The notes below the pieces were generated by a model. That model made no database searches, was not told the DNA's origin, and saw nothing but the letters and a program-made list of their open reading frames with translations. The position numbers were made by a program, and so were the translations under genes. Below are positions 5,737-42,665 of a stretch of DNA of 64,000 bases, in pieces. Numbering within the stretch: position 1 is the first letter of the stretch; each line of letters starts with the position of its first letter. Origin of the DNA: an uncultured Alistipes sp. (GTDB lineage: Bacteria; Bacteroidota; Bacteroidia; Bacteroidales; Rikenellaceae); assembly GCA_949285535.1 (NCBI GenBank), contig CASDZP010000002.1, positions 100,054-164,053 of the forward strand, given 5' to 3'.

Positions 5737-5758
5737 TATCAAAAAATCTATTAATGGA

Positions 5759-7126: not shown

Positions 7127-7177
7127 ACTGAAAATCTGATTATTGTTTATCTTTGGTAAAATATCAAAAATGATTTG

Positions 7178-7358: not shown

Positions 7359-7443
7359 TACCCGAAGCGGGACTTGAACCCGCACGACCGAAAGGGTCAC
7401 AGGATTTTAAGTCCGGCGTGTCTACCAATTCCACCATTCGGGC
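7359..7443 (-). tRNA. tRNA-Leu (anticodon UAA)
   Basis: Cloverleaf folded by eye: acceptor gcccgaa/ttcgggt, anticodon loop cuUAAaa, long variable arm, T arm gcggg-ttcaagt-cccgc. Length 85 nt, no encoded CCA. Confidence 0.9.
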
Positions 7444-7593
7444 ATCCTGTTGCGGTGCAAAGGTAATATTTATTTGGTAAGATTACAACACAAAACACAT
7501 CTTTTATAAAATAAGGTCAAAACACGAGTGCGGCACATACAGCCGACCTCCGTATCTAATGCGGTCTGTCAGGAACGTTTAGACCAGTTCTGG

Positions 7594-9273
7594 TTATTTT
7601 ATGCGGGCAGTGTATTCCGTAATTTCATATTTGTCGCTTCCGAAAATATCACCCTGCTCTCCGTTTTCAACGATACAGAAACGATTTCCTTCAACCGAAA
7701 CCACAACGACATCATTCATTACAGAAAAATCGACTATTTTACCGCCTACACTGAAATATATGCTCTCGCGCACTCCCAGCGACTCGGGTTTTGCCCGTTG
7801 CAGGACATCGTCGTAACGAGTTGAATAGACGTAATGTTCATTATGGGGATAATAGTTGTCGCACGGGAAATAAAGTTCGTTGAAATAATAAAAATCCGAC
7901 GACACCAGTTCTCCGAGAGTGTTCCATTTATAGTAACGTCCGTTTCCGACCAAGGTTGCATCGCCCTCCACAAAAGCTTCCGTTATGTTCCAATGTCCGC
8001 CGAGGTCGAGTTCGGGAGAATCTATCTGCCAGCTCCATGTCTCTCCGTTTTTGACAAGTCTGTGAACATAAAGCCCTGAAGCGGTATTTATTATAGCCAT
8101 GAAATCGCCGTCAGGAGCAACTACAATCGCAGGTGTTCCTATAAAAGAATCCGACTGCCCTGCCACACGCTCAATCTGTCGCACCACTCCATCAACAAGA
8201 ATTTCATTTTCGTTAAGCAATACATTATTCCCGCTGACACACCATCTTATGGGGCTGTATTTGTCGGCGACAGCCACAGTTGTCGAGCCGTCAAATACTC
8301 TGGTCACCTTTACGCCGAGACGGGCAAGTTCGAGATAACCGTCTTCATTGAGACCTTCCGTTAAACTGTTGTCCAACAAAGCCCTGTCAATATCAAAGCG
8401 ATATATGGGAACGCCTGCGACGCCATCGGGCGACTCTTTTGACGGCATGAAGAAAAAGGTATTCTCGCTCTCGCATCTGAATTGGACCGCATGTTCGTCC
8501 TCACCGAATATGTCTCCTGCCGATTCGTTAAGAGGAATCAGAAAACCGTCAGACGAACGCACCAATACGGGATAGGCGTCTTTCACCAACTGCTGGTGAG
8601 CCACAAAACCGTCAGAACGGGAATATATAGTATCGATTCTGGTGGCATAGTGCAACCATGCGAACGAATAATAAGCAGATATAGTTTTGAAGGCACGCAA
8701 AGTGGCTGTCGGCAACTCTTCATGACCGCCATCGGTACATTTCAGTGAGTCGAGTCCTGTTCCTTTAGTCAACTTCATTCCGAAAGACTCCTCTCTACCC
8801 TTTTGTGAATCAAACGCCTCCACCAGCAACACGGCGTCATCCAAATCGGCGAAATGGGGACGACCCGCCCTCAAATTTTCAGAAGCAACCATTTCAAAAA
8901 CGGTTACTGTTCCAAGATTAAAAGTCGTATCGGCTGCCGAATTACCGCGTCTGCCCGTGAGAGTAAATGAATAATCCCCTCTGTAATCTTCAGGTACCGA
9001 TATATATATATTAGACTTTCCGTTTTGCGAAGTCGACTCATCCACAGACAAAGACATCTGCGTACCGTCAAACCTCACAATCGGATTTTCAATTACTTCG
9101 GATACACTCAAAAAAAACGGTTCCCCGGCAATAATCTCTTTGTCGTAAATAAATACTGGGTCATCAGACGGTTTGATACCACCATCACCGTCTGCATAAT
9201 GTTTTGTGCATGACAAAAATCCGAACAGCGAACAAAAAAGGACAAGAACCGTAAAAATATTCGTTTTCTTCAT
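7594..9273 (-). CDS. hypothetical lipoprotein
   Basis: 559-aa ORF. The N-terminus MKKTNIFTVLVLFCSLFGFLSC has a signal peptide and a lipobox Cys. I recognise no family. Confidence 0.7.
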   Translation of the reverse strand: MKKTNIFTVLVLFCSLFGFLSCTKHYADGDGGIKPSDDPVFIYDKEIIAGEPFFLSVSEVIENPIVRFDGTQMSLSVDESTSQNGKSNIYISVPEDYRGDYSFTLTGRRGNSAADTTFNLGTVTVFEMVASENLRAGRPHFADLDDAVLLVEAFDSQKGREESFGMKLTKGTGLDSLKCTDGGHEELPTATLRAFKTISAYYSFAWLHYATRIDTIYSRSDGFVAHQQLVKDAYPVLVRSSDGFLIPLNESAGDIFGEDEHAVQFRCESENTFFFMPSKESPDGVAGVPIYRFDIDRALLDNSLTEGLNEDGYLELARLGVKVTRVFDGSTTVAVADKYSPIRWCVSGNNVLLNENEILVDGVVRQIERVAGQSDSFIGTPAIVVAPDGDFMAIINTASGLYVHRLVKNGETWSWQIDSPELDLGGHWNITEAFVEGDATLVGNGRYYKWNTLGELVSSDFYYFNELYFPCDNYYPHNEHYVYSTRYDDVLQRAKPESLGVRESIYFSVGGKIVDFSVMNDVVVVSVEGNRFCIVENGEQGDIFGSDKYEITEYTARIK

Positions 9274-9546
9274 AAAAAAACATTTAGACCCGCATATAAA
9301 ACCGTACCTTTACCTATATCACGAGAATATCTACGCACATAAATAAAAGTAGCACATAAATTGCAGGCTAATTTTCAAGTGTACAAAAATAACAAATAAT
9401 ACTCTCTTTGCTCGAAATAATTTATTGTTTTACACAACAAAAAGGATAACGCCACAAAACGTGATTTTTAGACATAAATGCAACACACTATAAAACAACC
9501 ACTTCCATAAAAAATCGCTAAAATTTTCATTTTTTTGTCATTTTTA

Positions 9547-9578
9547 TTTGGATAAGCTGTTTTTTTGTCATATTTTTG
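9547..9578 (+). promoter_or_regulatory. candidate promoter of the tRNA-Lys cluster
   Basis: TTTG (9547-9550), a 20-nt spacer, then TATTTTTG (9571-9578). The first tRNA starts at 9598. Confidence 0.55.
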
Positions 9579-9597
9579 CACTCGCAAAGAAAAAGAT

Positions 9598-9670
9598 GAT
9601 TCAGTAGCTCAGCTGGTAGAGCACGACACTCTTAATGTTGGGGTCCTGGGTTCGAGCCCCAGCTGAATCA
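9598..9670 (+). tRNA. tRNA-Lys (anticodon CUU)
   Basis: Acceptor gattcag/ctgaatc, D stem gctc/gagc, anticodon stem cgaca/tgttg with loop ctCTTaa, T arm ctggg-ttcgagc-cccag. Confidence 0.92.
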
Positions 9671-9712
9671 CTTCTCCGCGATGTACGGGCGGAAGAATAA
9701 ATTCCGTACAAC

Positions 9713-9785
9713 GATTCAGTAGCTCAGCAGGTAGAGCACAACACTTTTAATGTTGGGGTCCTGGGTTCGAGCCCCAGCTGGATCA
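9713..9785 (+). tRNA. tRNA-Lys (anticodon UUU)
   Basis: Same fold as the first copy. Anticodon stem caaca/tgttg with loop ctTTTaa. Confidence 0.92.
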
Positions 9786-9827
9786 CTACTCCGCAATGTA
9801 CGGGCGGAAGAACAAATTCCGTACAAC

Positions 9828-9900
9828 GATTCAGTAGCTCAGCAGGTAGAGCACAACACTTTTAATGTTGGGGTCCTGGGTTCGAGCCCCAGCTGGATCA
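9828..9900 (+). tRNA. tRNA-Lys (anticodon UUU), second copy
   Basis: Identical to 9713-9785. Confidence 0.92.
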
Positions 9901-9908
9901 CAAAAAGG

Positions 9909-9944
9909 AAACATCCGCAAAATAATTTTTGCGGATGTTTTTTG
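9909..9944 (+). terminator. intrinsic terminator of tRNA-Lys cluster
   Basis: aaacatccgcaaaa / taat / ttttgcggatgttt, followed by a T-run. Confidence 0.8.
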
Positions 9945-10011
9945 TTTTTATGCCTGTACACAATAATCACGTGCAATATTCCGTAATAAAATCGTATTGC
10001 CGGACAGGCAA

Positions 10012-10057
10012 TAAAAAAACAACGATGACCATTGTGTCACAAAAGTCATCGTTGTTT
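10012..10057 (-). terminator. intrinsic terminator (minus strand), about 250 nt downstream of the efflux operon
   Basis: 13-bp stem aaacaacgatgac (10017-10029) pairs with gtcatcgttgttt (10045-10057). On the minus strand it is followed by T7. Confidence 0.65.
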
Positions 10058-10311
10058 CATTATTTGGTTGTCGTGACGCAATGCGTCTGACAAAATATCC
10101 CAAAAACACGGGAGAGGGCTATGTCGAACGAAGAACGATACGGGGCGGTATGATAACAATGAGAAAAAACTCCGTCTGCAGCGCCACTCTCCCGTTTTAT
10201 TTTTACATAACAGCTTACAAGTCCGATAATCTACCCGTTTTCAGTCGCGTCATACCGCACCACGACTATTCGACATAGCGAAACGGGTGATTGTTGTCGG
10301 AAGTGTCTCCG

Positions 10312-11682
10312 CTATTTTTCCTGTCCGCCGCCTAATGCCTGGTAGAGTGTCACAACACTCTGTATCTCGGCAAAACGGTTTGCCGTTCTTGACAATTCGG
10401 CAGACAGAAGCGTCTGTCGTGCGGTCAACACCTCGAGATAGGTGCGGTTACCGTACTCCATTAACAATGTAGTGCTTTTAAGAGCCTTCTGCAACGAGGT
10501 AACCTGCTTGTCATAAAGTTCGGTTTTGTTGCGTGCGGTCTGATAGGATGTCAGAGCGTCGTTCACCTCCACTCCTGCGTTGAGCAGCGTCTGTTCAAAA
10601 GCCAGACGTGCCTCTTCCTGCTGTGCTTTGGTTATCTTGAGGTTGGCGATGTTCTGACCTCTGTTAAAGAGGGGAAGCGTCAGCGAACCTATCGCCGAAG
10701 CGACAAATTTGGCAGGATTTACAATCATGGAACCCACTTCGTTAACCCAACCTGCACTGCCGCTCAACACTATCGACGGATAGAAGTTTGAGCGAGCCTG
10801 ATTGGTGGCATAGAAAGCGGCTTCGAGAGCGTGTTCAGCAGAACGCACATCGGGACGAGCCGAGAGCATGCGGATTGGTATGCCGACAGATAAATCTTCG
10901 GGCATGGTCTGTTCCGCGAGCGTTCCCCGCTCATATGTTCTCGGAGTCTCGGCAAGAAGCAACGACAATGTGTTTTGTGTAGTGATAATCTGCTCCTGAA
11001 GGTCGAGAACAGAAGTCTGTACGCTGTAATAAGTAGCTTCCATCTGTGATACGGCAGCCTCGTCGTACTGTCCAGCATCCATAAGGGCACGTGCGGACGC
11101 TATTGTCTCTTTCCATGCCTCTTCAGTCTGTTTTGAGATTTCGAGCTGCTCGTCCAACATCAAAAGCGTATAGTATGTGTTGGCAATGTTTGCTATCAAC
11201 TGCGTACGCACCGCCTGTTTATAGTCGAGACTCTGGGCATAGAGTGCCTGAGACTGTTTTTTGGCGTTACGCATACGTCCGAATATGTCAAGCTCCCAAC
11301 TTGCCGTGACAGGCAGCTGATAGGTCCATGTAGCCTTGTCACCGCCCGACATTCCGCTAACACCACCCTGAGGGGCGATTGCAAAAGAGGGCAAAAACGC
11401 AAGCTTTGACGAAAGGAGAGTTGCCTGCGCCTCCTCTACCCTCAACTGTGCGGACGCGTAATCGGTATTGTTCTCCAATCCGCGTTCTATGAGGGTCTGA
11501 AGATAAGGGTCGGTGAAAATCTCGTGCCAGTCCGTATCGCCTATGCTGACAGTATCGACACTCATCTCGACACTGTCTCCGTACAGATTGTCGGGAACAC
11601 TATCCACCGGTGTATATCGGCTGTATATGCCGCACCCTCCCAAAAGAAGGGTGGCGGCCATAGGTATTATCATTTTTTTCAT
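10312..11682 (-). CDS. RND efflux outer-membrane factor lipoprotein (TolC/NodT family)
   Basis: About 456 aa with the lipobox LLLGGCG and two-repeat OMF architecture, directly downstream of the RND pump. The track start at 11685 is GTG. An ATG lies at 11682. Confidence 0.9.
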   Translation of the reverse strand: MKKMIIPMAATLLLGGCGIYSRYTPVDSVPDNLYGDSVEMSVDTVSIGDTDWHEIFTDPYLQTLIERGLENNTDYASAQLRVEEAQATLLSSKLAFLPSFAIAPQGGVSGMSGGDKATWTYQLPVTASWELDIFGRMRNAKKQSQALYAQSLDYKQAVRTQLIANIANTYYTLLMLDEQLEISKQTEEAWKETIASARALMDAGQYDEAAVSQMEATYYSVQTSVLDLQEQIITTQNTLSLLLAETPRTYERGTLAEQTMPEDLSVGIPIRMLSARPDVRSAEHALEAAFYATNQARSNFYPSIVLSGSAGWVNEVGSMIVNPAKFVASAIGSLTLPLFNRGQNIANLKITKAQQEEARLAFEQTLLNAGVEVNDALTSYQTARNKTELYDKQVTSLQKALKSTTLLMEYGNRTYLEVLTARQTLLSAELSRTANRFAEIQSVVTLYQALGGGQEK

Positions 11683-11700
11683 CACACAATCGTTCTTTCG

Positions 11701-14700
11701 TTATTTTATGTCTTTGTCATCGAGAGCCACTCTTTCAGACTCGTTTCTTGCCATCTCTACCTGCACCTGCATATCGGCATCGACATGCATCGGACCGCGA
11801 AGTTTCTCCTGCAAATACTCGAAGACAATATAGAATATCGGAACCACGAAGAGAAGCGCGAGTGTACCGATTATCATACCGCCGATAACGCCCGTACCGA
11901 GAGAGCTGTTACCGTTGGCACCCGCACCTGTCGAGAACATCAGGGGCAACAGACCGAAAATCATTGTGAGGACGGTCATAAGAATGGGTCGCAGACGAGC
12001 CTGTGCCGCAGAGTAAGCGGAAGCAACGATACCCATGCCCTTACGTCTTCTCTCAACGGCGAATTCCGTAATAAGGATGGCAGTCTTTGCCAAAAGACCG
12101 ATCAACATAATCATACCTGTCTGGAGGTAGATGTTGTTTTCGAGTCCGAACGCCTTGGCGAAGAGGAATGAACCCATCAGACCGAAGGGAACTGAGAGAA
12201 TGACAGCCAACGGTATGATGAAACTTTCATAGAGGCAGACAAGAATAAGATAGATGAGAACCACGCAGATGACATATATGAAGACTGTCTCCGCACCGCC
12301 TCTCTGTGCCTCTTCTCGCGCCATACCGCCGAATTCGTAGCCGTAACCTGTGGGCAACACCTGTGAGGCAACCTCTTTTATCGCCTGCTGTGCCTGACCT
12401 GAAGAGTAGCCTTCGGCTGCGCTGACATTGACAGATATTGAACTGTAAAGGTTGAAACGGTTTGCCACTTCGGCGCCGAGCGTGTTCTTCAGAGTGACGA
12501 ACTGACTTATCGGAGCCATCTCCGTACCGTTGCGGACAAACATGTTGTCGAGCGAATGTTTGTCCAGACGGAAGTCGGGAGAGGCCTGGAGCATCACTCG
12601 ATACACCTTACCGAACTGGTTGTAGTTAGAGACATAAGAACCGCCGCAATATGCGCCGAGCACATCCAATATGTCGGTTGCGGCAATTCCGGCACGTTTA
12701 CATTTAGCCGCATCCACTTCAACGGCTATCTGAGGATAGCTCATAGAATAGGTGGTGTATGCCATCGCTATCTCGGGACGCTGGTTAAGAGCGCCGACAA
12801 ACTGCATCACGTTGTTATAGAAGACGCTCTTTTCGCCACCCGTCTTATCCTGCATGTTAAGCTCTATCGCGTTACCCATACCGTAACCGGGAATCATGGC
12901 GGGCTGGAAACAGAAGACGCTCGCCTCCTTAATCTGACCGAGCAGACCGTTCAGACGCGCCATGACGGCTGCGGCGGTGTGTTCCTCTCCTTTTCGTTCG
13001 TCCCAATGTTTCAGTTTAATGATTGACATACCGTAAGAGGTACCCTGTCCTGAAATCAAACCGTAACCTGACACACAGCTGAAGTGGTCAATCTCGGGCT
13101 GAGCCTCAAGTATCGCCGTCACCTTATCCAACACTTTGTTTGTCTCGCTCAAAGTGCTACCGGGAGAGGTCGCGATGTTGACCATGATTGTACCCTGGTC
13201 TTCCTGCGGTACAAGACCCGTTTTCGTGGTCTTCATCAAAAAGACAAGAAGCACTGCGGTCACAGCAAGCGACAACCACACCATCCAACGGTGGTGAATG
13301 GCAAACATCACACCTCTTTTATATTTACCCAATATGGCATTGTAAGAGGCGTTATATGCTGCACGCACCCTGCCGTTAAAGCTTTTTGCGCTCTTCGTTC
13401 CGTCAGCAGGACGCATGATGAGAGCACAGAGTGCGGGACAGAGAGTAAGTGCCGAGATGAGTGATATACCCACAGAGGTAGCCATGGTGATACCGAACTG
13501 TGTATAGAATACGCCCGAAGTACCGCCCATGAAGGTCACGGGGATAAACACCGCCATAAAGACGATAGAACAGGTTATGACCGCCATTGTCACATCACGC
13601 ATACCGTCGCGAGTAGCGTTTATCGGCGACTTGTAGCCTATATCGAATTTAGACTGGACAGCCTCCACAACGATGATGGCGTCGTCCACCACTATACCGA
13701 TTGCAAGCACAAGGGCGAAAAGCGTCAATATGTTGATACTGAAATCGGCAGCCACAAGGCAGGCGAAAGTACCTATCAACGAAACAATGATAGATATAGA
13801 GGGGATGAGCGTACTCTTGAAGTCCTGCAAGAAGAAGTAAACCACAAGAATGACGAGGATTATCGCCACGATAAGCGTTTCAACGACGTTGTGTATCGAA
13901 GCGAAAAGGAAGTCGTTGGTGCTCATCATCTGAACGAACTCAAGACCTTCGGGAAGGTTCTCAGACATCTGGTCTATCATTTTGCTTATGGACTCGTTCA
14001 CCTCGGTCGCGTTACTTCCCGCCACCTGGAAGACGAGGAATGTGACACCGGGAGCGCCGTCAACCTCACCACGGAAACTGTACGACTCGCGTCCAAGTTC
14101 TACTTCGGCAATATCCTTGAGACGGAGCACCGAACCGTCCGCGTTTGAACGAACCACAATGTCGTTAAATTCAGACATATCTTTGAGTCGTCCGCGATAT
14201 TTCATCGTGTACTGGAACACATTATCCGAACTTTCACCCAAAGAACCCGTGGGGGATTCAAGGTTCTGTTCGTTCAGCACGGCTGTCACGTCCGAAGGCT
14301 GAAGACCGTACTGTGCCATGCGTTCGGGATTGAGCCATATACGCATACTGTACGTATCACCCAATTCCATGACGTCACCTACACCCTGAATACGTTTTAT
14401 CTCGGGGATAACGTTGATGTCGAGATAGTTGGCGATAAACGACTCGTCATATCGTCCATCAGGGCTGGTGAGAGCGCAAATCTGAAGGAAGCTGCTCTGA
14501 CGCTTCATTGTGGTCACACCGATTTTTGTAACCTCGGTAGGCAACAGCCCCTGCGCCATAGAGACACGGTTCTGCACGTTGACCGCCGCCATGTCGGGGT
14601 CGGTACCCTGATTGAAATAGACCGTTATGCTGGCTGAGCCCGCGTTGGTTGCGGTAGAACTGATATACATCATGTTCTCCACACCGTTTATGCTCTCCTC

Positions 14701-14919
14701 GAGAGGCATGATGACACTGTTCATCACCGCATCGGCGTCGGCACCCGTATATGTGGCTGAAACCTGAACCGTAGGCGGCGCGATGTCGGGATACTGCTCC
14801 ACAGGCAGACTGAAGAGCGATATGAAACCGATTATCAGTATCAGAATGGAGATGGCCAATGCGGCCATCGGCCGTTTTATGAATACGTTTTCTTTCATAA
14901 TGTCATTCTCCTCCGTCAT
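11701..14919 (-). CDS. RND multidrug efflux permease (AcrB/HAE1 type)
   Basis: 1072 aa with 12-TM plus large periplasmic loop architecture and typical AcrB-family sequence blocks. Confidence 0.95.
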   Translation of the reverse strand: MTEENDIMKENVFIKRPMAALAISILILIIGFISLFSLPVEQYPDIAPPTVQVSATYTGADADAVMNSVIMPLEESINGVENMMYISSTATNAGSASITVYFNQGTDPDMAAVNVQNRVSMAQGLLPTEVTKIGVTTMKRQSSFLQICALTSPDGRYDESFIANYLDINVIPEIKRIQGVGDVMELGDTYSMRIWLNPERMAQYGLQPSDVTAVLNEQNLESPTGSLGESSDNVFQYTMKYRGRLKDMSEFNDIVVRSNADGSVLRLKDIAEVELGRESYSFRGEVDGAPGVTFLVFQVAGSNATEVNESISKMIDQMSENLPEGLEFVQMMSTNDFLFASIHNVVETLIVAIILVILVVYFFLQDFKSTLIPSISIIVSLIGTFACLVAADFSINILTLFALVLAIGIVVDDAIIVVEAVQSKFDIGYKSPINATRDGMRDVTMAVITCSIVFMAVFIPVTFMGGTSGVFYTQFGITMATSVGISLISALTLCPALCALIMRPADGTKSAKSFNGRVRAAYNASYNAILGKYKRGVMFAIHHRWMVWLSLAVTAVLLVFLMKTTKTGLVPQEDQGTIMVNIATSPGSTLSETNKVLDKVTAILEAQPEIDHFSCVSGYGLISGQGTSYGMSIIKLKHWDERKGEEHTAAAVMARLNGLLGQIKEASVFCFQPAMIPGYGMGNAIELNMQDKTGGEKSVFYNNVMQFVGALNQRPEIAMAYTTYSMSYPQIAVEVDAAKCKRAGIAATDILDVLGAYCGGSYVSNYNQFGKVYRVMLQASPDFRLDKHSLDNMFVRNGTEMAPISQFVTLKNTLGAEVANRFNLYSSISVNVSAAEGYSSGQAQQAIKEVASQVLPTGYGYEFGGMAREEAQRGGAETVFIYVICVVLIYLILVCLYESFIIPLAVILSVPFGLMGSFLFAKAFGLENNIYLQTGMIMLIGLLAKTAILITEFAVERRRKGMGIVASAYSAAQARLRPILMTVLTMIFGLLPLMFSTGAGANGNSSLGTGVIGGMIIGTLALLFVVPIFYIVFEYLQEKLRGPMHVDADMQVQVEMARNESERVALDDKDIK

Positions 14920-16022
14920 TTAATCTGCATGCCTTCACGCAACAGACCTGCGCCTTTAGAGACGATTTCATCTCCTACTTCAAGGCCTTTGGTGACAATG
15001 TACTGGCGTCCGTCGTTAATCTCTTCCACTTCTATGAGTGCAGATACAGCCTTACCGTCAACCACTTTATATACGATGACTTTATCCTGGAGACGGACAG
15101 TTGCCTCCTGAGGTATCACGATGCAGTTTTTATATGTACTCGGCATTAGAACGGCACCTGAAGCACCGCTGTGCAACAGACGGGCGTCGTTGGGGAATAC
15201 CGCACGAACGCTGACGGTACCTGTCTGACGGTCTATCACACCACTGATTGATTCGACACGTCCTTTCTGCTCGTAGATTGAACCGTCGTTGAGCTGGAGT
15301 TCGATTTCAGGCATCTGCTCGAGCGCCTTGTCGAGTGTACCGTAACTGCGAATCAATGAGAGGAGAGCATTCTCGGTCATTGAAAAATATACATACATCA
15401 CAGAGTTGTCGGAAACGGTGGTCAACGGCTGAGCCATGTTTGAGCTGACCAAAGTACCCACACGATAGGGCAATGTTCCGACAACGCCGTCGCTCGGACT
15501 TTTCACAACCGTGTAAGAGAGGTTGTTTCTGGCATTGACCTCCTGAGCCTCCGCCTGCGCCAACTGTGCTTTGGCTGTGAGGTAAGAGTTCTCTGCCGTT
15601 CTGAGCGTATAGTCTGAAACGACTTTCTCCTCAAAAAGTTTTTTGTTACTTTCGTATGTCAGTTTTGATGTCGCCAATCCTGCCTTTGCCGACTGAACAT
15701 TCGCCAACGCCGTGTTCAACGCGGCTCTGTACGGAACCTGGTCTATTATAAAGAGCGTCTGTCCTTTTTTGACCTTATCGCCTTCGGAAACACGCAACGC
15801 CTGAATCGTTCCCGACACCTGCGGATAGATGTCGATATCCTGACGTCCGCGTATCGTGGCGGAATAGAGAGTGTTTATCTCCTGATCACTCGTAGAAACA
15901 TTCATTGTCGAATAATTCGCCGCAGCCTGCTGCATCTGAGGTGCCTGCTTGCAAGCAACAACAAAAGCGACACAACAAATCATCCCGATTCGCTGCATCC
16001 ATCTTCTTTCTCTTTTTTTCAT
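14916..16022 (-). CDS. RND efflux periplasmic adaptor (membrane fusion protein)
   Basis: About 368 aa with a lipoprotein-like N-terminus (MICCVAFVVAC). It overlaps the pump gene by 4 nt. The track start at 16028 is GTG. An ATG lies at 16022. Confidence 0.9.
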   Translation of the reverse strand: MKKRERRWMQRIGMICCVAFVVACKQAPQMQQAAANYSTMNVSTSDQEINTLYSATIRGRQDIDIYPQVSGTIQALRVSEGDKVKKGQTLFIIDQVPYRAALNTALANVQSAKAGLATSKLTYESNKKLFEEKVVSDYTLRTAENSYLTAKAQLAQAEAQEVNARNNLSYTVVKSPSDGVVGTLPYRVGTLVSSNMAQPLTTVSDNSVMYVYFSMTENALLSLIRSYGTLDKALEQMPEIELQLNDGSIYEQKGRVESISGVIDRQTGTVSVRAVFPNDARLLHSGASGAVLMPSTYKNCIVIPQEATVRLQDKVIVYKVVDGKAVSALIEVEEINDGRQYIVTKGLEVGDEIVSKGAGLLREGMQIK

Positions 16023-16097
16023 TTTCACTGTTATCTAAACCGTTTTTATTTTAATCGTACTGTATCGTTTCCATTATCGGAATGTCGCAAAAAACAC

Positions 16098-16108
16098 ACG
16101 CGACAGAA
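16098..16108. promoter_or_regulatory. direct repeat box acgcgacagaa (copy 1), candidate regulator site
   Basis: An exact 11-mer, repeated at 16208-16218, inside the divergent efflux/AraC control region. Confidence 0.35.
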
Positions 16109-16190
16109 TGACAAGACAAGTCTCAAACGATGCTTTTATCAAAAGAACAGCCTATTCGGCAACATTAAGGGTTGCCCGCTAAAAACAGAG

Positions 16191-16198
16191 CAAAGGTA
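16191..16198 (-). promoter_or_regulatory. candidate -7 box (TACCTTTG) of the efflux operon
   Basis: The plus strand reads caaaggta, which is TACCTTTG on the minus strand. It lies about 165 nt upstream of the adaptor gene start. Confidence 0.4.
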
Positions 16199-16207
16199 GG
16201 TCAAAAT

Positions 16208-16218
16208 ACGCGACAGAA
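16208..16218. promoter_or_regulatory. direct repeat box acgcgacagaa (copy 2)
   Basis: Exact copy of 16098-16108, 110 bp away, just upstream of the candidate efflux -7 box. Confidence 0.35.
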
Positions 16219-16264
16219 AATTTCTTTTCGTAACCTCTTTTTTTCAAAATAGGAATAAACGCAT

Positions 16265-16272
16265 TATCTTTG
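16265..16272 (+). promoter_or_regulatory. candidate -7 box (TATCTTTG) of the AraC-family gene
   Basis: Matches TAnnTTTG, 17 nt upstream of ATG 16289. Confidence 0.4.
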
Positions 16273-16288
16273 ACGACAAAAAAGAGAC

Positions 16289-17128
16289 ATGAACATATTT
16301 CATTTGACAAATAACGAATCATTTTCGGTGGGTATAAACGTACCGGCAGACTTTCCCGCAAACCATTTTGAAAAGACGGAAAATTTCATCATTTTTCTGA
16401 TTAACGAGGGAAGCGCGTCGATAGAGATAGATTTTTGTCAATACGAGCTTCAGAAAAACCGATTCATAATAATAGGAAAGGATCTGTTTTTCAAATGTAC
16501 GGATATAAGCGACGACTTCAGGGTGTCGCACATAACGTTCAGCGTGGATATATGGCTCGAAATAACGGACCAGTTTGACTATAAGTTTTTCTCATTCCTG
16601 AAAAAATATCCCTACTCTCCGACCATGTCAGAAGAGCAGGTGGTAAAATTCAACCACATGATACACGCAATAAACGGAGTGTATCAGGAACATGAAAACA
16701 TTTTCAGACAGAAAATGTTCAAAAACTTCCTGCAAAATTTCCTGTTGAACCTCTACGACAAGACAAAAGCGCGTTTTCTGAATCACGACGCCAACAACAC
16801 ATGCCGTCAGGAAGAGTTGTTTGAAAAATTTATAGCGCTGGTGTTCAAACACAGTAGCACCAACCGTGACGTAAAGTTTTACGCTGACAAAATGTGCATA
16901 TCGACGCGTTATCTCTCATCTCTTGTCCAAAACATGACGGGACAGACTCCAAAAGTGATTATATCTCACCGATGTATCCAGGAGATAAAAAGGATGTTGC
17001 GCACCACAAACGATTCCATTCAGGAGATTGCCTTTCAGCTGCATTTCCCCGACCAGTCGTTCTTTTCACGATATTTCAAAAAGCATACGGGAATGTCACC
17101 GATGGATTATCGCAACAAACAAGAGTAA
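16289..17128 (+). CDS. AraC family transcriptional regulator
   Basis: 279 aa. The C-terminal approx. 100 aa carry the double HTH typical of AraC/XylS (…ISTRYLSSLVQNMTGQTPKVIISHRCIQEIKRML…FFSRYFKKHTGMSPMDYR). It is divergent from the RND operon. Confidence 0.85.
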   Translation: MNIFHLTNNESFSVGINVPADFPANHFEKTENFIIFLINEGSASIEIDFCQYELQKNRFIIIGKDLFFKCTDISDDFRVSHITFSVDIWLEITDQFDYKFFSFLKKYPYSPTMSEEQVVKFNHMIHAINGVYQEHENIFRQKMFKNFLQNFLLNLYDKTKARFLNHDANNTCRQEELFEKFIALVFKHSSTNRDVKFYADKMCISTRYLSSLVQNMTGQTPKVIISHRCIQEIKRMLRTTNDSIQEIAFQLHFPDQSFFSRYFKKHTGMSPMDYRNKQE

Positions 17129-32040: not shown

Positions 32041-32053
32041 CTTTTTTCTTTTT

Positions 32054-32112
32054 AAAGATATAATTATAGGGGATGATTTTATCGGAAAATCATCCCCTAT
32101 AATCATATCTTT
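32054..32112. repeat. 59-bp hairpin/palindrome (27-bp stem, 1 mismatch, 5-nt loop)
   Basis: aaagatataattataggggatgatttt / atcgg / aaaatcatcccctataatcatatcttt, checked base by base. The single mismatch is 32062 against 32104. Confidence 0.9.
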
Positions 32113-32160
32113 TAACGAAAAATATTTTCACACAACATAATAAAATACATGAAAATAATG

Positions 32161-32402
32161 TCTCCCGACAGGCTCTCCGAGGGGGTTCCGACGGGGCTCC
32201 GACGGCGCCTTCCGCGGGAGTTACTTTGTCCCTCGACAAAGTAACCAAAACGAGGGGGCACAGCCCCTTTTGTCCATGTCATATTCATTTGGCTCATTAT
32301 CTTCCACGAAGTCAGCATCATAAATTCGTATCGCCTCCGAAAAATAAAAATGGAGAAAAGAATGTAACGGGGTACGCTAATCAACTTGTCGGAAATGATA
32401 AA
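32161..32402. repeat. repeat element E, copy 1 (core 32220-32319; GC-rich 3x ccgacgg tail 32161-32219)
   Basis: The 48-nt block 32220-32267 is identical to the reverse complement of 32651-32698 and to 42027-42074. The 29-nt block 32291-32319 is identical to the reverse complement of 32599-32627. Confidence 0.9.
32245..32402 (-). ncRNA. candidate sRNA 1 (about 158 nt), encoded by repeat copy 1
   Basis: A TAATTTTG -7 box at 32416-32409 on the minus strand points into the repeat. The transcript would end at the hairpin ggggcugugccccc followed by cguuuu (32267-32247). It is a paralogue of the 32514-32672 candidate. Confidence 0.35.
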
Positions 32403-32513: not shown

Positions 32514-32672
32514 TCTCTTAATAAGAGAATAAGGATTGACAGGTTGGCAAGCGTACCCCGTCGTTTCCTTTTTTACTATGCGAGGCGAGTGCTGTGAAGA
32601 TGCTGACTTCGTGGAAGATAATGAGCCAACTGGGTGTGACATGGTGGGAAGGGGCTGTGCCCCCTCGTTTTG
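32514..32672 (+). ncRNA. candidate sRNA 2 (about 159 nt), encoded by repeat copy 2
   Basis: The promoter box is at 32500-32507. The terminator hairpin ggggctgtgccccc (32651-32664) is followed by tcgtttt. It shares conserved blocks with candidate sRNA 1. Confidence 0.35.
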
Positions 32673-32710
32673 GTTACTTTGTCGAGGGACAAAGTAACGC
32701 CGTCGGCAGA
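32514..32710. repeat. repeat element E, copy 2 (inverted relative to copy 1; core 32599-32698)
   Basis: See copy 1. The outer end tctgccgacggcg (reverse complement of 32698-32710) is shared with copy 3. Confidence 0.9.
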
Positions 32711-32722
32711 CATATATTGATA

Positions 32723-32884
32723 ACAGACTCCCCAAAGGAACGGTAATGATAGAATTTGAATAACCAACATTACACACAAATACGAAGAGAGGTGGAAAAT
32801 AGTCTGATTTTCCACCTCTCTTCGTATTTGTGTGTAATGTTGGTTATTCAAATTCTATCATTACCGTTCCTTTGGGGAGTCTGT
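32723..32884. repeat. 162-bp perfect palindrome (78-bp arms, 6-nt spacer) containing the 3' end of the biotin-carrier gene
   Basis: Arms 32723-32800 and 32807-32884 are exact reverse complements (78/78), checked by hand. Confidence 0.95.
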
Positions 32885-33185
32885 CGCCTGTGTTGATGTT
32901 TACAGCTTTGACTACGCCGTCAACGTCCGACTTAATCATGCTGTCCATCTTCATGGCTTTGAACAACACCAAATCGTCGCCTTCTGACACGGTGTCGCCG
33001 ACCTTAACCTTTACGTCAACGATTGTGCCGGGAATGAAGTTCACGACCTGTTTGGGGTTTGCGGGCTCCCACGGTTTACGTCTGCGGTACGTTTCGGTGA
33101 ATCTCATCGTCTTGAAATCACCGTGCATCGTACCAATAACCTCATATGCGGGGGTCGCAGTCTCTTCCGTTTTGGTTTTAGCCAT
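32844..33185 (-). CDS. biotin carboxyl carrier (biotinyl/lipoyl domain) protein
   Basis: 113 aa with the biotinylation motif EAMKM-like (FKAMKMDS). It lies downstream of the carboxyltransferase gene. Confidence 0.85.
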   Translation of the reverse strand: MAKTKTEETATPAYEVIGTMHGDFKTMRFTETYRRRKPWEPANPKQVVNFIPGTIVDVKVKVGDTVSEGDDLVLFKAMKMDSMIKSDVDGVVKAVNINTGDRLPKGTVMIEFE

Positions 33186-39223: not shown

Positions 39224-41854
39224 ATGGCCACTGAAAAGAAATATGTAGAGACCCCGCTGATGAAGCAGTACTACCAGATGAAGTCGAAACACCCCGACGC
39301 CATCCTGCTTTTCCGCGTGGGAGACTTTTATGAGACTTTCGGCGACGATGCGATAAAGACAAGCTCCATACTTGGGATAACGCTAACAAAACGCGCCAAC
39401 GGAGCCGCCTCATACGTCGAGCTGGCGGGATTCCCCTACCATGCGCTCGACACCTACATGCCCAAACTCGTAATGGCGGGCGAACGAGTGGCTATATGTG
39501 AACAGCTCGAAGACCCGAAAAAGACGAAGACAATCGTAAAAAGGGGTATAATCGAGCTTGTGACACCGGGTGTGTCGTTCAACGACAATGTGATAAACAA
39601 AAAGGAGAACAACTATCTGGCTTGCGTCTTTTTCGGACAGAAGAAAGTAGGAGTGTCGTTCCTCGACATAACAACGGGTGAGTTCTACGCCGCCGAAGGG
39701 TCGAAAGAGTATGTCGAAAAACTGCTCGCCAACTTCGCGCCCAAAGAGGTGCTGTTTCAGCGCGGATGCAAAGAGCAGTTCGTTGAGGCGTTCGGCTCGA
39801 AATATCACCTGTACCACCTCGAACAGTGGATTTTCTCGCTCAAAAGCGCGACCGACAAACTGACATCGCAGTTAGGTGTGATGTCGCTCAAAGGCTTCGG
39901 TATCGAGAAGCAGGAGTCGGCGATAATAGCCGCTGGCGCAATACTCTACTACCTCGAATTTACCGAGCATCACGACACGAAACATATCTCGGCGATAACA
40001 CGAATCGACGAGGACAAATATATGTGGCTCGACAAATATACGCTCCGCAATCTGGAGATATTCAACTCGACTACCACAGACGGATACTCGCTGATAGACA
40101 TAATAGACAGGACGGTCACCCCTATGGGCGGACGATTGCTCCGACGCCAGCTCTCACTGCCGCTCAACAACAGACGACAGATAGAACAGCGTCTCGATGT
40201 GACAGAGGCTTTCGTAAAAGAGGCTGGCATCTGTGACTCCGTATCCTCGATACTCAAAGGCGTGGGCGACATCGAACGCCTCATATCGAAAGTGGCGGTC
40301 GGACGTGTATCGCCGCGCGAGTTAGTGGCTCTGAAAAACAGCTTTACAGCCATATCGGAGATAAAAGAGATACTTCTGACGTCGGACAACAAGGCTGTCA
40401 ACTCGTGGAGCGGCAAGCTCGACGGGCTGCCCACCATGCGTGAGAAGATAGAGAAAACGATACTCGAAGAGCCCGCCGCCAATATCGCCAAAGGCGGAGT
40501 GATAGCGCACGGCGTATCGGTAGAGCTTGACTCGCTCAGGCAGATGTCGCACGGAGGCAAGACCTATCTGGCGCAGATGCAGGAGCGACTCTCCGAGCAG
40601 ACGGGAATACCGTCGCTCAAAATCAGCTTTAACAATGTGTTCGGCTATTTTATCGAGGTGCGCAACACGCATAAGGATAAGGTACCCGAAGAGTGGATAC
40701 GCAAACAGACGCTGTCGGGAGCGGAGAGATATATCACCGCAGAGCTGAAAGAGTATGAGGAAAAAATTCTCGGAGCGGAAGAACGCATATTGGCGTTGGA
40801 GGCGGAGATATTCGGAGCGTTAGTCATTGAGCTTGCCGCCGAGACATCGAAAGTGCAGGCGGACGCGGTACAGCTGGCACGTCTCGACCTTTTCTGCTCA
40901 TTCTCGATAATGGCACGTGCGGCAAACTATTGCCGTCCCGCTCTCTGTGACGAACCGATTATCGACATAAAGGAGGGACGACATCCCGTAATCGAACGAC
41001 TGATGCCTATCGGCGAGACATACATACCAAATGACATAAAACTCGACGACAAGAGCAACCAGATAATAATAATCACGGGTCCCAACATGGCTGGTAAGTC
41101 GGCGTTGTTGCGACAGTGCGGTCTGATAACGCTTTTGGCGCAGATAGGCTCGTTCGTACCCGCAAAAGAGGCGACAATAGGTGTCGTGGACAAGATTTTC
41201 ACCCGTGTGGGAGCGTCAGACAACATATCGCAGGGCGAATCGACATTCATGGTCGAGATGCTCGAATCGGCGAACATCCTCAACAACGCCACATCGAAAT
41301 CGCTGGTACTGCTCGACGAGATAGGTCGAGGAACAAGTACATACGACGGTATTTCGATAGCGTGGGCGATGGTGGAATACCTGCACTCGCTTGAGGGTAA
41401 GGGCGTGAGGACGCTGTTTGCCACACACTATCACGAGCTTAACGAGCTTGAGGAGATTTATCCGAGGATTAAGAACTATAATGTCGCCGTAAAGGAGATT
41501 AACGGCAGAATCATATTTTTGAGGAAGCTGGTCGAAGGCGGCACGGAACACTCGTTCGGTATTCATGTGGCACGATTGGCGGGTATGCCCAAAAGTGTCA
41601 TCAGCAGAGCCAACGAGGTGCTTCACGCTCTCGAAAAGCGTCGTGACGGAGCCGAAGGCTCTACGGACTTCAATATTCCCGGATTCAAGGAGGTATCGGG
41701 TCAGGAAAACATGCAAATGGCGTTATTCCAGCTCGACGACCCATTGGTATCACAGATAAAAGAGGAAATCTCATCACTCGACCTAAACAACATAACCCCT
41801 ATCGAAGCCCTCAACAAGTTGAGCGACATCAAGCGACTGCTTGGAGTGAAATAA
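39224..41854 (+). CDS. mutS: DNA mismatch repair protein MutS
   Basis: 876 aa (…TPLMKQYYQMKSKHPDAILLFRVGDFYE…, Walker A GPNMAGKS). Confidence 0.97.
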   Translation: MATEKKYVETPLMKQYYQMKSKHPDAILLFRVGDFYETFGDDAIKTSSILGITLTKRANGAASYVELAGFPYHALDTYMPKLVMAGERVAICEQLEDPKKTKTIVKRGIIELVTPGVSFNDNVINKKENNYLACVFFGQKKVGVSFLDITTGEFYAAEGSKEYVEKLLANFAPKEVLFQRGCKEQFVEAFGSKYHLYHLEQWIFSLKSATDKLTSQLGVMSLKGFGIEKQESAIIAAGAILYYLEFTEHHDTKHISAITRIDEDKYMWLDKYTLRNLEIFNSTTTDGYSLIDIIDRTVTPMGGRLLRRQLSLPLNNRRQIEQRLDVTEAFVKEAGICDSVSSILKGVGDIERLISKVAVGRVSPRELVALKNSFTAISEIKEILLTSDNKAVNSWSGKLDGLPTMREKIEKTILEEPAANIAKGGVIAHGVSVELDSLRQMSHGGKTYLAQMQERLSEQTGIPSLKISFNNVFGYFIEVRNTHKDKVPEEWIRKQTLSGAERYITAELKEYEEKILGAEERILALEAEIFGALVIELAAETSKVQADAVQLARLDLFCSFSIMARAANYCRPALCDEPIIDIKEGRHPVIERLMPIGETYIPNDIKLDDKSNQIIIITGPNMAGKSALLRQCGLITLLAQIGSFVPAKEATIGVVDKIFTRVGASDNISQGESTFMVEMLESANILNNATSKSLVLLDEIGRGTSTYDGISIAWAMVEYLHSLEGKGVRTLFATHYHELNELEEIYPRIKNYNVAVKEINGRIIFLRKLVEGGTEHSFGIHVARLAGMPKSVISRANEVLHALEKRRDGAEGSTDFNIPGFKEVSGQENMQMALFQLDDPLVSQIKEEISSLDLNNITPIEALNKLSDIKRLLGVK

Positions 41855-42007
41855 TCACCTTCTGATAAGCATAATTCTGATAAGAGATAAAATAAACATG
41901 GCTATCATTGTTTGTCAAATGATAGCCATATTTATTTTTATCTCTTATCAGAATTATGCTTGTCAGAAGGTGATTATTTCACTCCAAGCAGTCGCTTGAT
42001 GTCGCTC
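41821..42007. repeat. 187-bp near-perfect palindrome (89/90-nt arms, 8-nt spacer) containing the 3' end of mutS
   Basis: Arms 41821-41909 and 41918-42007 are reverse complements, apart from 2 mismatches and a 1-nt indel, all outside the coding part. Confidence 0.95.
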
Positions 42008-42014
42008 CGCGGGG

Positions 42015-42126
42015 TCTGCCGACGGCGTTACTTTGTCCCTCGACAAAGTAACCAAAACGAGGGGGCACAGCCCCTTTTGTCCATGTCATATTCTGTTGGC
42101 TCATTGTCTTTTACGAAGTCAGCATC
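42015..42126. repeat. repeat element E, copy 3 (core only; truncated at the chrA stop)
   Basis: 42027-42074 is identical to 32220-32267. 42075-42126 matches 32268-32319 with a handful of mismatches, about 5. The leading tctgccgacggcg matches copy 2. Confidence 0.9.
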
Positions 42127-42140
42127 TGACCGTGCATAGC

Positions 42141-42665
42141 CTAAAAGAGGAAGTAGCCGACGACACCGCTCAAAGCAACGACCAAAAGAGGATTGACCTT
42201 AAACCATACGGCGGCAAGTGAAACGACAAAGACAATGACGCTTCGGTAGTCGATAAAGTTCTCTCCGTTCATCATGATGAGAGCAGCAGAGGCTATAAGT
42301 CCGATTATGACGGGACGCATCGACCTCATCACCTGTTTCAAATAGGGATTGCCGTTAAGACGCGCATAGAAGAAAGAGCCTATCAACATCAGCACAAGCG
42401 ACGGAGTGCAGACACCCAAAGTGGCGAGCACCGAGCCGAGAACACTTCCGCCCGTAGCGGTATAGCCAATATATGTTGCGCAGTTTATCGAGATGGGTCC
42501 GGGGGTCATCTGCGATATGGCGACAATATCGGCGAACTCCGAGCTGCTTATCCACTCGTGAGCGACAACAACCTCACTCTGTATGAGAGACAACATGGCA
42601 TAACCGCCGCCGAACCCGAAAAATCCGATTTTCAGAAAAGAAAGGAAAAGTTCAAAGTATATCAT
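42141..42665 (-). CDS. chromate transporter family protein (short-chain CHR, second half)
   Basis: 174-aa membrane protein (…GFGGGYAMLSLIQ…). It overlaps the partner gene by 4 nt. Confidence 0.85.
   Translation of the reverse strand: MIYFELFLSFLKIGFFGFGGGYAMLSLIQSEVVVAHEWISSSEFADIVAISQMTPGPISINCATYIGYTATGGSVLGSVLATLGVCTPSLVLMLIGSFFYARLNGNPYLKQVMRSMRPVIIGLIASAALIMMNGENFIDYRSVIVFVVSLAAVWFKVNPLLVVALSGVVGYFLF

What the first reader, a model, noticed from the sequence alone, without database searches (positions are those of the whole stretch)
41821..42007. 187-bp near-perfect palindrome duplicating in inverted orientation the last 31 coding nt, the stop codon and the terminator of mutS
The architecture matches the one at 32723. 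The left arm 41821-41909 holds mutS coding to 41851, the stop at 41852-41854, then 55 nt. The right arm 41918-42007 is its reverse complement, apart from two substitutions and one extra T, all outside the coding-derived part. The spacer is 8 nt (gtttgtca). The inner part, atggctatcatt/aatgatagccat followed by atttattttt, is an ordinary terminator. The outer 60 bp or so, including …DIKRLLGVK-stop, are not. The few differences suggest this one is older than the perfect copy at 32.8 kb. Two unrelated genes carrying the same unusual structure in one 64-kb window argues for a recurrent process rather than an accident.
Basis: partly seen in the sequence, partly recalled or inferred. Interest (0 to 1): 0.65.

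Follow-up and report, generated by a model that had tools for sequence, protein, structure and literature searches.

The report
Gene-end palindromes beside a hairpin repeat
The 187-bp palindrome after mutS is real. It is one of many cases in gut Rikenellaceae-type bacteria where a gene's own terminator hairpin has grown into a long palindrome that copies the gene's last codons backwards, always next to one end of a very abundant, undescribed hairpin-bearing repeat element.

Summary
Arms 41821-41909 and 41918-42007 differ by two substitutions and one indel, and other assemblies from 8 metagenome runs carry the same structure. The copied arm abuts a ~120-nt repeat at 42008-42130, made of GC-rich units, an invariant 11-bp hairpin (GTTACTTTGTC-N4-GACAAAGTAAC), CAAAAC and a second hairpin. 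Its depth is hundreds of times that of the flanks. The palindrome at 32.8 kb abuts an inverted copy of this repeat. A fourth case lies 8 kb outside the window. Eight of ten copies in two other Rikenellaceae MAGs show the same layout: a co-oriented gene, its terminator at the centre, an inverted copy of up to 38 coding nt, then the element. In about 200 kb scanned, the only other palindrome that reached the scan's score cut-off is an ordinary terminator. At an orthologous rplQ locus the arms diverged between two species yet stayed self-complementary. My best reading is fold-back (snap-back) copying primed from the terminator hairpin and triggered at the element's outer end, with the arms then homogenised by template switching. 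The enzyme is not identified, and I could not tell whether the copying happens at insertion or later. I rate it a new variant of REP/MITE-type repeats with an undescribed flank signature.

The parts
39224..41854 (+). mutS (876 aa); its last 31 coding nt and its stop lie in the left arm
   Evidence: the C-terminus ...LSDIKRLLGVK is conserved in the 83%-identical homologue, which has no palindrome
41821..41909 (+). left (original, distal) arm: coding end, stop, 3' UTR and the 5' half of the terminator
41898..41939 (+). intrinsic terminator core: 12-bp stem, 8-nt loop 41910-41917, T-rich tail; this is the centre of the palindrome
41918..42007 (+). right (proximal) arm: the 3' half of the terminator, then the inverted copy of the 3' UTR, stop and 31 coding nt
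   Evidence: confirmed in other assemblies
42008..42130 (+). repeat element copy C: GC-rich units 42005-42026 (CTCCGCGGGG, TCTGCCGACGGC), hairpin-1 42027-42052, CAAAAC 42053-42058, hairpin-2 42062-42074, tail to about 42127
   Evidence: word depth 3000-17000 against 8-20 for the flanks
42060..42075 (-). hairpin-2 read on the minus strand, followed by CTCGTTTTGG: a terminator-like site for the convergent chromate-transporter gene
42141..42665 (-). convergent gene (Chromate_transp); its stop lies about 11 nt from the inner end of the element
32723..32884 (.). sister palindrome: 78-nt perfect arms and a 6-nt loop. The right arm holds the last 38 coding nt and the stop of the biotin-carrier gene 32844..33185(-). 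The left arm is the copy.
32599..32711 (-). element copy B; its outer end lies 11 nt from the copied arm
32160..32319 (+). element copy A, with 4-5 GC-rich units. A and B form an inverted doublet (hairpin-1 to hairpin-1, 479 nt).
32044..32122 (.). older, imperfect palindrome (27-nt arms with 1 mismatch; 37 nt at 86%) outside copy A, upstream of the kdsB-like gene. This is the weakest case.

Best explanation
The palindrome is a fold-back (snap-back) inverted duplication seeded by mutS's own intrinsic terminator. It is causally tied to the outer end of a high-copy, non-coding, hairpin-bearing interspersed repeat (REP/MITE-like) that lies immediately downstream. The inferred steps are these. (1) A free or stalled 3' end arises on the gene-sense strand just after the terminator, next to the element's outer end. 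This happens either when the element inserts, as target-primed copying, or later, by nicking or stalling at that end. (2) The symmetric terminator (stem plus A/T tracts) folds back and primes DNA synthesis. That synthesis copies the strand's own upstream sequence for 25-90 nt, through the 3' UTR and stop and into the coding sequence. (3) Synthesis or joining then continues into the element's GC-rich terminal unit array. (4) Afterwards, intra-palindrome template switching (quasi-palindrome correction) keeps the two arms nearly identical. Several things are shown: the anatomy, the strict association with the element and its orientation, the terminator at the centre, recurrence in three species, and concerted evolution of the arms. 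Three things are inferred: the fold-back chemistry, the trigger, and the timing.
For: (a) X is ancestral and X' is the copy. The MutS C-terminus is conserved in a homologue without the palindrome. (b) Association. All three element copies in the window, a fourth in the same species (L024: 65-nt perfect arms holding the end of a pseudouridine-synthase gene) and 8 of 10 copies in two other Rikenellaceae MAGs have a long palindrome 19-110 nt outside hairpin-1. In 199 kb scanned, the only other palindrome that reached the score cut-off is an ordinary 20-nt-arm terminator. (c) In every case but copy A, a co-oriented gene ends in or just before the distal arm, with 0-38 coding nt inside it. The centre is a GC stem with A/T tracts. 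(d) The three copies without a palindrome (L009, L010, L016) have no terminator hairpin between the stop codon and the unit array. So a pre-existing hairpin is required, as fold-back predicts. (e) Ordinary terminators in this genome are already symmetric, with 18-20-nt arms, which makes them good snap-back primers. In the mutS case two of the three arm differences (the 41897 mismatch and the A/T-run indel) lie in the A/T tract next to the stem, and the rest of the arm has a single mismatch. (f) At the orthologous rpoA-rplQ loci of two species the outer boundaries of the palindrome are the same. The arm interiors differ by 5 mismatches and 9 gap columns in 42, yet each is 40/40 or 32/35 self-complementary. 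(g) Junction microhomology with the unit array is clear for L006 (9/10) and suggestive for mutS (8/10). (h) The number of units varies between copies, species and strains. (i) The fold-back model with a spacer and short inverted repeats at the centre is established elsewhere (PMC3907307).
Against: No enzyme or autonomous element was found, so the trigger is unidentified. Junction microhomology is not general (7 of 9 junctions are not above background). In several copies 5-45 nt of non-unit sequence lies between the copied arm and the first recognisable unit. No empty or pre-palindrome allele was found: all 8 metagenome strains carry the structure, and the nearest relatives are too diverged. 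The L024 copy has a perfect palindrome although its hairpin-1 is broken, so ongoing element activity is not needed to keep the arms identical. Firmicutes relatives of the element show no long flank palindromes, so a factor specific to the host or the subfamily is needed.
Confidence: 0.55

Rival explanations
1. Palindromes come first. Terminators occasionally grow into long palindromes by replication template switching, independently of the element. The element, perhaps a single-strand or hairpin-seeking transposon, then inserts preferentially beside such hairpins.
For: The element family sits next to terminators or gene ends even where there is no extension (Firmicutes L014 and L018; L009, L010 and L016). 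Long palindromes extrude hairpins and stall forks, which exposes single-stranded DNA. Most junctions lack microhomology.
Against: No long palindrome without an element was found in about 200 kb, while ordinary terminators without the element remain short. The copied arm is always the one facing the element, and the element's orientation is fixed relative to it. The element can insert without any palindrome.
Confidence: 0.2
2. The extended hairpin is kept by selection. It could serve as an RNA 3'-end stabiliser, an RNase III site or an insulator against transcription from or into the element. The association then reflects function rather than a mutational mechanism.
For: The arms co-evolve at the rplQ locus. 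The palindromes lie at the ends of highly expressed or housekeeping genes (rplQ, rpsN, mutS, gpmI).
Against: If transcription stops at the inner terminator, the copied arm is not in the mRNA. Strain SNPs in one arm are not compensated (X2 at 41973 and 41986, X6 at 41842). Known quasi-palindrome correction explains concerted evolution without selection. This rival still needs a fold-back event to create the copy, so it complements the main explanation rather than replacing it.
Confidence: 0.1
3. The palindromes are recombination sites of an integron-like or other site-specific system (attC-like folded sites at gene ends).
For: attC sites are long imperfect palindromes at the 3' ends of cassette genes and can include the stop codon (established knowledge).
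Against: The palindromes share no sequence with one another: no R/L boxes and no extrahelical bases. The genes are core housekeeping genes in conserved operons, not cassettes. No integrase lies nearby.
Confidence: 0.02
4. Assembly or amplification artefact (an inverted chimera).
For: Palindromes break de Bruijn graphs, and MDA makes inverted chimeras.
Against: The same structure, with strain-specific SNPs, is present in 8 runs from 7 coded studies (P1-P8) and in ENA contigs. The sequence continues into unique DNA on both sides. Orthologous palindromes occur in two MAG species.
Confidence: 0.01

Closest known systems
REP / REPIN elements mobilised by RAYT (TnpA-REP, HUH Y1) and IS200/IS605-derived PATE MITEs
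   Same: Short, non-coding, hairpin-centred repeats present in hundreds of copies. They lie in intergenic DNA at gene 3' ends and occur singly or as inverted doublets (A-B here; L014, L018, L019, L020). The hairpin is conserved as a structure: the L018, L019 and L020 partner hairpins carry compensatory changes. Bacteroidetes have a RAYT-like subclass flanked by 'atypical secondary structures' (PMC6006769).
   Different: There is no GTAG/CGTC head. The unit is much longer (about 120 nt, doublets 460-670 nt), with arrays of subterminal GC-rich units and a second hairpin. The core is identical across Bacteroidota and Firmicutes MAGs, whereas REPs are lineage-specific. No RAYT or TnpA gene was found. 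Flank-derived palindromes are not described for REPs in the papers I could search.
Fold-back inverted duplications, and quasi-palindrome template-switch mutagenesis
   Same: An inverted copy is separated from the original by a short spacer, with a short natural inverted repeat at the centre (PMC3907307). Quasi-palindrome template switching, known from E. coli work (my own knowledge), would make imperfect palindromes perfect.
   Different: Here the copies are small (25-90 nt), internal to a bacterial chromosome, recurrent at terminators and tied to one end of a mobile repeat. They are not one-off rearrangements at chromosome breaks.
Group IIC introns (insertion just after intrinsic terminators)
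   Same: A terminator stem-loop marks the insertion neighbourhood. The orientation relative to the upstream gene is fixed.
   Different: There is no intron RNA structure, no reverse transcriptase and no Rfam hit. Group IIC introns do not duplicate the flank.
P-nucleotide addition after flank-hairpin formation (V(D)J, hAT transposons), and the long inverted mtDNA repeats flanking invertron plasmids (kalilo, pAL2-1; PMC1864894)
   Same: A mobile-element end is associated with palindromic or inverted duplication of flanking host DNA.
   Different: P nucleotides number a few and are centred on the junction itself with no loop. Here the centre is the natural terminator, 30-100 nt from the element. 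With kalilo-type plasmids the inverted repeats lie on both sides of the insert and span kilobases.
Integron attC sites
   Same: Long imperfect palindromes at gene 3' ends that may include the stop codon.
   Different: No conserved boxes, no cassettes, no integrase.

Membership tests
Intrinsic (rho-independent) terminator (centre of the palindrome) | GC-containing stem, 3-8-nt loop, T-rich tail just downstream of a stop codon | tested here: met
   41898-41929 followed by ATTTATTTTT. for the 32.8 kb case. The pattern was matched only; termination itself was not measured.
REP/REPIN-RAYT | High-copy short palindromic repeat in extragenic DNA, often as inverted doublets | tested here: met
   Depth ratio of several hundred. 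The copies are intergenic. Doublets were seen.
REP/REPIN-RAYT | Conserved GTAG or CGTC tetranucleotide at the foot of the hairpin | tested here: not met
   The hairpin starts GTTAC and is preceded by variable GC-rich sequence.
REP/REPIN-RAYT | A cognate single-copy Y1 HUH transposase gene flanked by the repeats | not testable with these tools
   None is encoded near the copies examined.
IS200/IS605-derived MITE (PATE) | Different left- and right-end hairpins on the same strand, no terminal inverted repeats, no target duplication, a specific 4-5-nt target | tested here: inconclusive
   The doublets are two-fold symmetric, like terminal inverted repeats, which argues against membership. Solo half-copies such as C and D exist. 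No target motif could be defined.
TIR-type MITE of a DDE transposon | Terminal inverted repeats plus a direct target-site duplication | tested here: inconclusive
   Long structured inverted ends are present in the doublets. I saw no direct duplication at A-B or at L019/L020, but the outer ends are fuzzy because of the variable units.
Group IIC intron | Group II ribozyme domains, with or without a reverse-transcriptase ORF | tested here: not met
   No Rfam match at gathering or E-value thresholds. The element is about 120 nt.
Integron attC | R''-L''/L'-R' boxes with extrahelical bases, a cassette context and IntI | tested here: not met
   The palindromes are perfect or near-perfect copies of local sequence, unrelated to one another. 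The genes are housekeeping genes.
Fold-back inverted duplication (a mechanism, not a family) | An inverted copy adjoining the original, separated by a short single-copy spacer bounded by a short natural inverted repeat | tested here: met
   The process itself was not observed.

The most novel reading that the evidence does not exclude
The repeat is a mobile element whose integration is primed by the target itself. A 3' end made just after a gene's terminator snaps back on the terminator hairpin, copies the gene's end, and then switches onto the element as template. This would leave an inverted target-site duplication, an insertion signature not known for any prokaryotic transposon. It would also be a built-in way of making long attC-like palindromes at gene ends.
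Probability: 0.22. Interest if true: 0.85.

Novelty: new variant of a known kind. Interest (0 to 1): 0.68.

Why it matters
Long perfect palindromes are thought to be poorly tolerated in bacterial chromosomes, and inverted copies of coding sequence are rare. Here they recur at the ends of core genes (mutS, rplQ, rpsN, gpmI, a methylmalonyl-CoA mutase-like gene, a biotin carrier), and always beside one end of a hugely abundant repeat that no searched library describes. The repeat's core hairpin is shared by gut Bacteroidota and Firmicutes. If the link is causal, it defines a new mutational signature of a mobile element in bacteria: a small-scale fold-back inversion at terminators. It would also give a natural system for studying snap-back synthesis, palindrome maintenance and concerted evolution of the arms. 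There is a practical side too: these structures and the repeat break short-read assemblies exactly at gene ends.

Tried and rejected
1. Rfam found nothing but tRNAs and chance hits. I searched the whole window at gathering scores and the element, the MAG loci and the Firmicutes loci at E-value thresholds.
2. BLAST of the element and of the MAG inner region against plasmid and phage collections gave no match.
3. Exact-pattern scans gave little. The 48-mer core has no hit in viral, genome or metagenome collections. The metagenome scan gave one locus, a copy of the L007 locus. The viral scan gave none.
4. The search for a partner protein failed. No protein is shared between loci except at orthologous loci. 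The neighbours in the window are housekeeping genes.
5. General microhomology at the junction between the copied arm and the element was tested and is not supported beyond L006 and mutS.
6. The pre-insertion allele could not be found. The relatives with 83% and 79% MutS identity have unrelated downstream DNA. All 8 strains in metagenomes carry the structure.
7. No usable RNA runs were found.
8. Walking beyond the window worked on one side only (L024). The two proteins I tried at the right-hand end of the window are not on record.
9. I first read the conserved ~400 nt on the inner side of the MAG copies as a possible rRNA leader. It is more likely the interior of a longer doublet whose inverted partner breaks the assembly. 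This is not resolved.
10. A sequence-string search of the literature returned only unrelated primer hits.
Full report
1. The observation

The window encodes an 876-aa MutS at 39224..41854 (+), with all five MutS Pfam domains. Directly on the sequence, the left arm 41821-41909 holds the last 31 coding nt, the stop at 41852-41854 and 55 further nt. The loop is 41910-41917 (gtttgtca). The right arm 41918-42007 is the reverse complement. The arms differ by two substitutions (at 41866 and 41897) and one base in an A/T run, all outside the coding-derived part.

The inner hairpin 41898-41929 followed by ATTTATTTTT matches the intrinsic-terminator pattern. The only inverted repeats of 30 nt or more within 400 nt in the whole 64 kb are this one and a cluster at 32.0-32.9 kb. 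Chance cannot produce a 72-nt, 99% match.

It is not an assembly artefact:
- A Logan contig from SRR29449911 that carries the identical MutS ends exactly at the last base of the left arm, as a de Bruijn graph would at a palindrome.
- In run X2 a 797-nt contig runs through both arms into the downstream repeat, with 8 strain SNPs.
- Short contigs in X1 and X4 cross the loop.
- All eight bird or gut metagenome runs I laid on the region contain it.

The sister palindrome 32723-32884 has 78-nt perfect arms and a 6-nt loop. Its right arm holds the last 38 coding nt and the stop of a biotin-carrier gene on the minus strand. An ENA contig reproduces it base for base over 700 nt.

The copied arm of each palindrome abuts a repeat. 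Three copies lie in the window: A at about 32160-32319 (+), B at 32599-32711 (-) and C at 42008-42130 (+). They share an identical 48-nt core and are 89-95% identical over about 100 nt.

Reading from the palindrome inward, the element consists of:
- one to five GC-rich units of about 10-13 nt (CTCCGACGG-like);
- a perfect 11-bp hairpin with a 4-nt loop (GTTACTTTGTC CCTC GACAAAGTAAC);
- CAAAAC;
- a second hairpin (GGGGC ACA GCCCC) followed by TTTTG;
- about 45 nt more.

Read on the other strand, hairpin-2 followed by CTCGTTTTGG fits a terminator for the convergent chromate-transporter gene. That gene's stop lies about 11 nt from the inner end of the element.

In eight metagenome runs the word depth over the core is 3,000-17,000, against 5-20 for the flanks. 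The family is therefore present in hundreds of copies per genome equivalent in those communities. A and B are inverted relative to each other (479 nt from hairpin to hairpin) and form a doublet.

3. The association is systematic

Ten of them are in two uncultured Rikenellaceae MAGs and nine in four Oscillospiraceae/Eubacteriales MAGs. The taxonomy is taken from the record titles.

In the Rikenellaceae MAGs, 8 of the 10 copies have a palindrome 43-106 nt outside hairpin-1. These palindromes have 25-52-nt arms, 0-2 mismatches and 4-10-nt loops. In every one a co-oriented gene ends in or just before the distal arm, with 0-31 coding nt inside it. The genes are rplQ (twice), rpsN, gpmI, a methylmalonyl-CoA-mutase-like gene, an SbcC-like gene and a 396-aa ORF. 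My gene names rest on C-terminal sequences and the rpoA-rplQ context.

A contig reaching about 8.5 kb beyond the window start (L024) gave a fourth case in the window's own species. A pseudouridine-synthase gene is followed by a perfect palindrome with 65-nt arms that contain its last 26 coding nt and its stop. Units follow, and then an element copy whose hairpin-1 has lost its 3' arm.

Across 199 kb (the window and all loci fetched up to that point), the only other palindrome above my score threshold is an ordinary bidirectional terminator with 20-nt arms that holds no coding sequence. In L024, fetched later, two further ordinary terminators have 18-nt arms.

The three Bacteroidota-type copies without a palindrome (L009, L010, L016) have the unit array starting within a few nt of the upstream stop codon. 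No terminator hairpin lies in between. So 11 of 14 copies have a palindrome, and a palindrome appears only where a terminator hairpin lies next to the element's outer end. Copy A is the weakest case. It has 27-37-nt imperfect arms and faces the 5' side of a gene.

4. The arms evolve in concert

L008 and L011 are orthologous rpoA-rplQ loci from the two MAG species, with about 92% nucleotide identity in the coding parts. In both species the palindrome starts at the rplQ stop codon and the copied arm ends at CCGATT.

The arm interiors differ between the species by 5 mismatches and 9 gap columns in 42. Within each species the arms are 40/40 and 32/35 complementary. The palindrome therefore predates the split and has been homogenised since.

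Quasi-palindrome template switching is a known process that would do this (my knowledge of the E. coli literature). Selection on structure is the alternative.

Within the window's species, the A/T-run indel of the mutS palindrome is resolved either way in other strains: one extra A in the left arm in X4, and one T fewer in the right arm in X5 and X18. Some strain SNPs in one arm are not compensated. One strain lacks exactly one 11-nt unit of copy A. The number of units also differs between the two species at the rplQ locus.

5. What the element is

I found no match in any of these searches:
- Rfam;
- the plasmid and phage collections;
- the viral contigs.

No protein is shared between the neighbourhoods of different copies.

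The Firmicutes relatives keep hairpin-1 plus CAAA(A/G)C exactly but have different flanking hairpins. They usually occur as 460-670-nt inverted doublets. The partner end of these doublets carries a variant hairpin with compensatory changes, for example GTTTCTTTTGG/CCAAAAGAAAC, GGTCCTTTTGC/GCAAAAGGACC and CATCCTTTTTTG/CAAAAAAGGATG. Hairpin-2 co-varies as well. The hairpins are therefore conserved as structures. The Firmicutes subterminal units resemble those of the Bacteroidota version, with a core like CTGACAGG or CCGGCGG.

Taken together, the element is a non-autonomous, REP/REPIN-like or MITE-like element with structured ends. It does not meet the REP definition because it has no GTAG/CGTC head. 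No cognate transposase could be looked for. Bacteroidetes are reported to have a RAYT-like Y1 subclass flanked by 'atypical secondary structures' (PMC6006769). That is a lead, not a test. The Firmicutes copies show no long flank palindromes.

6. How the palindrome most likely arises

The copied sequence is the one that faces the element. The centre is the natural terminator. Ordinary terminators in this genome are already symmetric, with 18-20-nt arms that include the A/T tracts. In the mutS case two of the three arm differences lie in the A/T tract next to the stem, and the rest of the arm has a single mismatch.

The simplest process that yields [gene end][stem-loop-stem][inverted gene end] is snap-back priming. 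A 3' end on the sense strand just after the terminator folds back on the hairpin and is extended on its own upstream sequence. Synthesis or joining then continues into the element's unit array. This is the fold-back model known from eukaryotic inverted duplications (PMC3907307), at a scale of tens of nucleotides.

The need for a 3' end or a stall at the element's outer end explains three findings. Only terminators beside the element are extended. Only the element-facing side is copied. Copies without a hairpin have no palindrome.

Two versions remain open:
- The event is part of insertion (target-primed copying of the element after snap-back).
- It follows insertion (nicking, breakage or polymerase stalling at the structured end).

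Junction microhomology with the unit array would favour a template switch. It is clear at L006 (9 of 10; only 2 of 140 alternative end points are as good) and suggestive at mutS (8 of 10; 11 of 140). It is absent at the other seven junctions. I therefore do not rely on it.

The shared boundary at the rplQ locus argues for one ancient event followed by homogenisation rather than repeated re-synthesis. The perfect arms next to the broken hairpin-1 in L024 show that ongoing element activity is not needed to maintain them.

7. Rivals

- 'Palindromes first, targeted insertion later' is weakened by the absence of any element-free long palindrome and by the fixed polarity.
- 'Selected RNA or DNA structure' may add to the main explanation but does not replace a fold-back origin.
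- An attC-like site and an assembly artefact are rejected by the tests in sections 1 and 3.

8. Novelty and verdict

I found no description of flank-derived long palindromes beside REP/MITE-type repeats in the searchable literature. The repeat family itself is not in Rfam. I rate the finding a new variant of a known kind: an interspersed hairpin repeat with an undescribed, recurrent fold-back signature at gene terminators.

The main uncertainties are the enzyme, the timing and the small sample. Confidence in the best explanation is 0.55. Interest is 0.68.

Noticed in passing
L003:2960-3400: Downstream of mutS in a 79%-identical relative (ERZ13632109) there are about five tandem copies of a ~62-nt unit (…cggttttaagatactcccgctcggtaaaatcaaaatgatttgcttttactctcgcttattcgtatctttaacctgt…). 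This is a different intergenic repeat at the same position.
   Followed up: no
L006:3880-4236, L008:1-350, L010:1-430, L012:1-440, L016:4640-4890: On the inner side of five MAG copies lies a further ~400 nt, 80-92% conserved between copies and between the two species (…AAAGGTATGCGCATTAGC…GAGGTTGG…ATGCGCATTAACCG…). All these contigs end there. It is probably the interior of a longer doublet, or of an autonomous element that breaks the assembly. No Rfam or plasmid match was found.
   Followed up: partly
L018:5642-5670, L019:1801-1828, L020:773-802, L014:2905-2930: In the Firmicutes doublets the partner ends carry variant versions of hairpin-1 with fully compensatory stem changes, still followed by CAAAAA. 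Hairpin-2 also co-varies between L019 and L020.
   Followed up: partly
window:32172-32195: Run X6 has a contig lacking exactly 11 nt (one GC-rich unit) of copy A's unit array. This is a copy-number polymorphism of the units within the species.
   Followed up: no
window:9598-9900 and 7359-7443: There are three tandem tRNA genes about 115 nt apart, two with identical scores, plus one tRNA on the minus strand. The contigs L024 and L025 start inside what look like tandem tRNA-like repeats.
   Followed up: no
window:32320-32600: The interior of the A-B doublet is itself mildly repeated (depth 3-8 times the flanks). Contigs in all four runs join 32319 directly to 32362, so other copies of a longer form of the element exist with a 42-nt shorter linker.
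   Followed up: no
L006:1000-3712: The 901-aa gene whose 3' end is copied into a 36-nt-arm palindrome has an SbcC/Rad50-like C-terminus (…ISHVPELSERIATRIKVVP…). So these genomes probably do encode the hairpin nuclease that is expected to attack long palindromes.
   Followed up: no
window:23151-23194; L024:12953-12993 and 16638-16680: Ordinary terminators in this species are symmetric, with 18-20-nt perfect arms that include the A and T tracts. This may predispose them to snap-back priming.
   Followed up: partly
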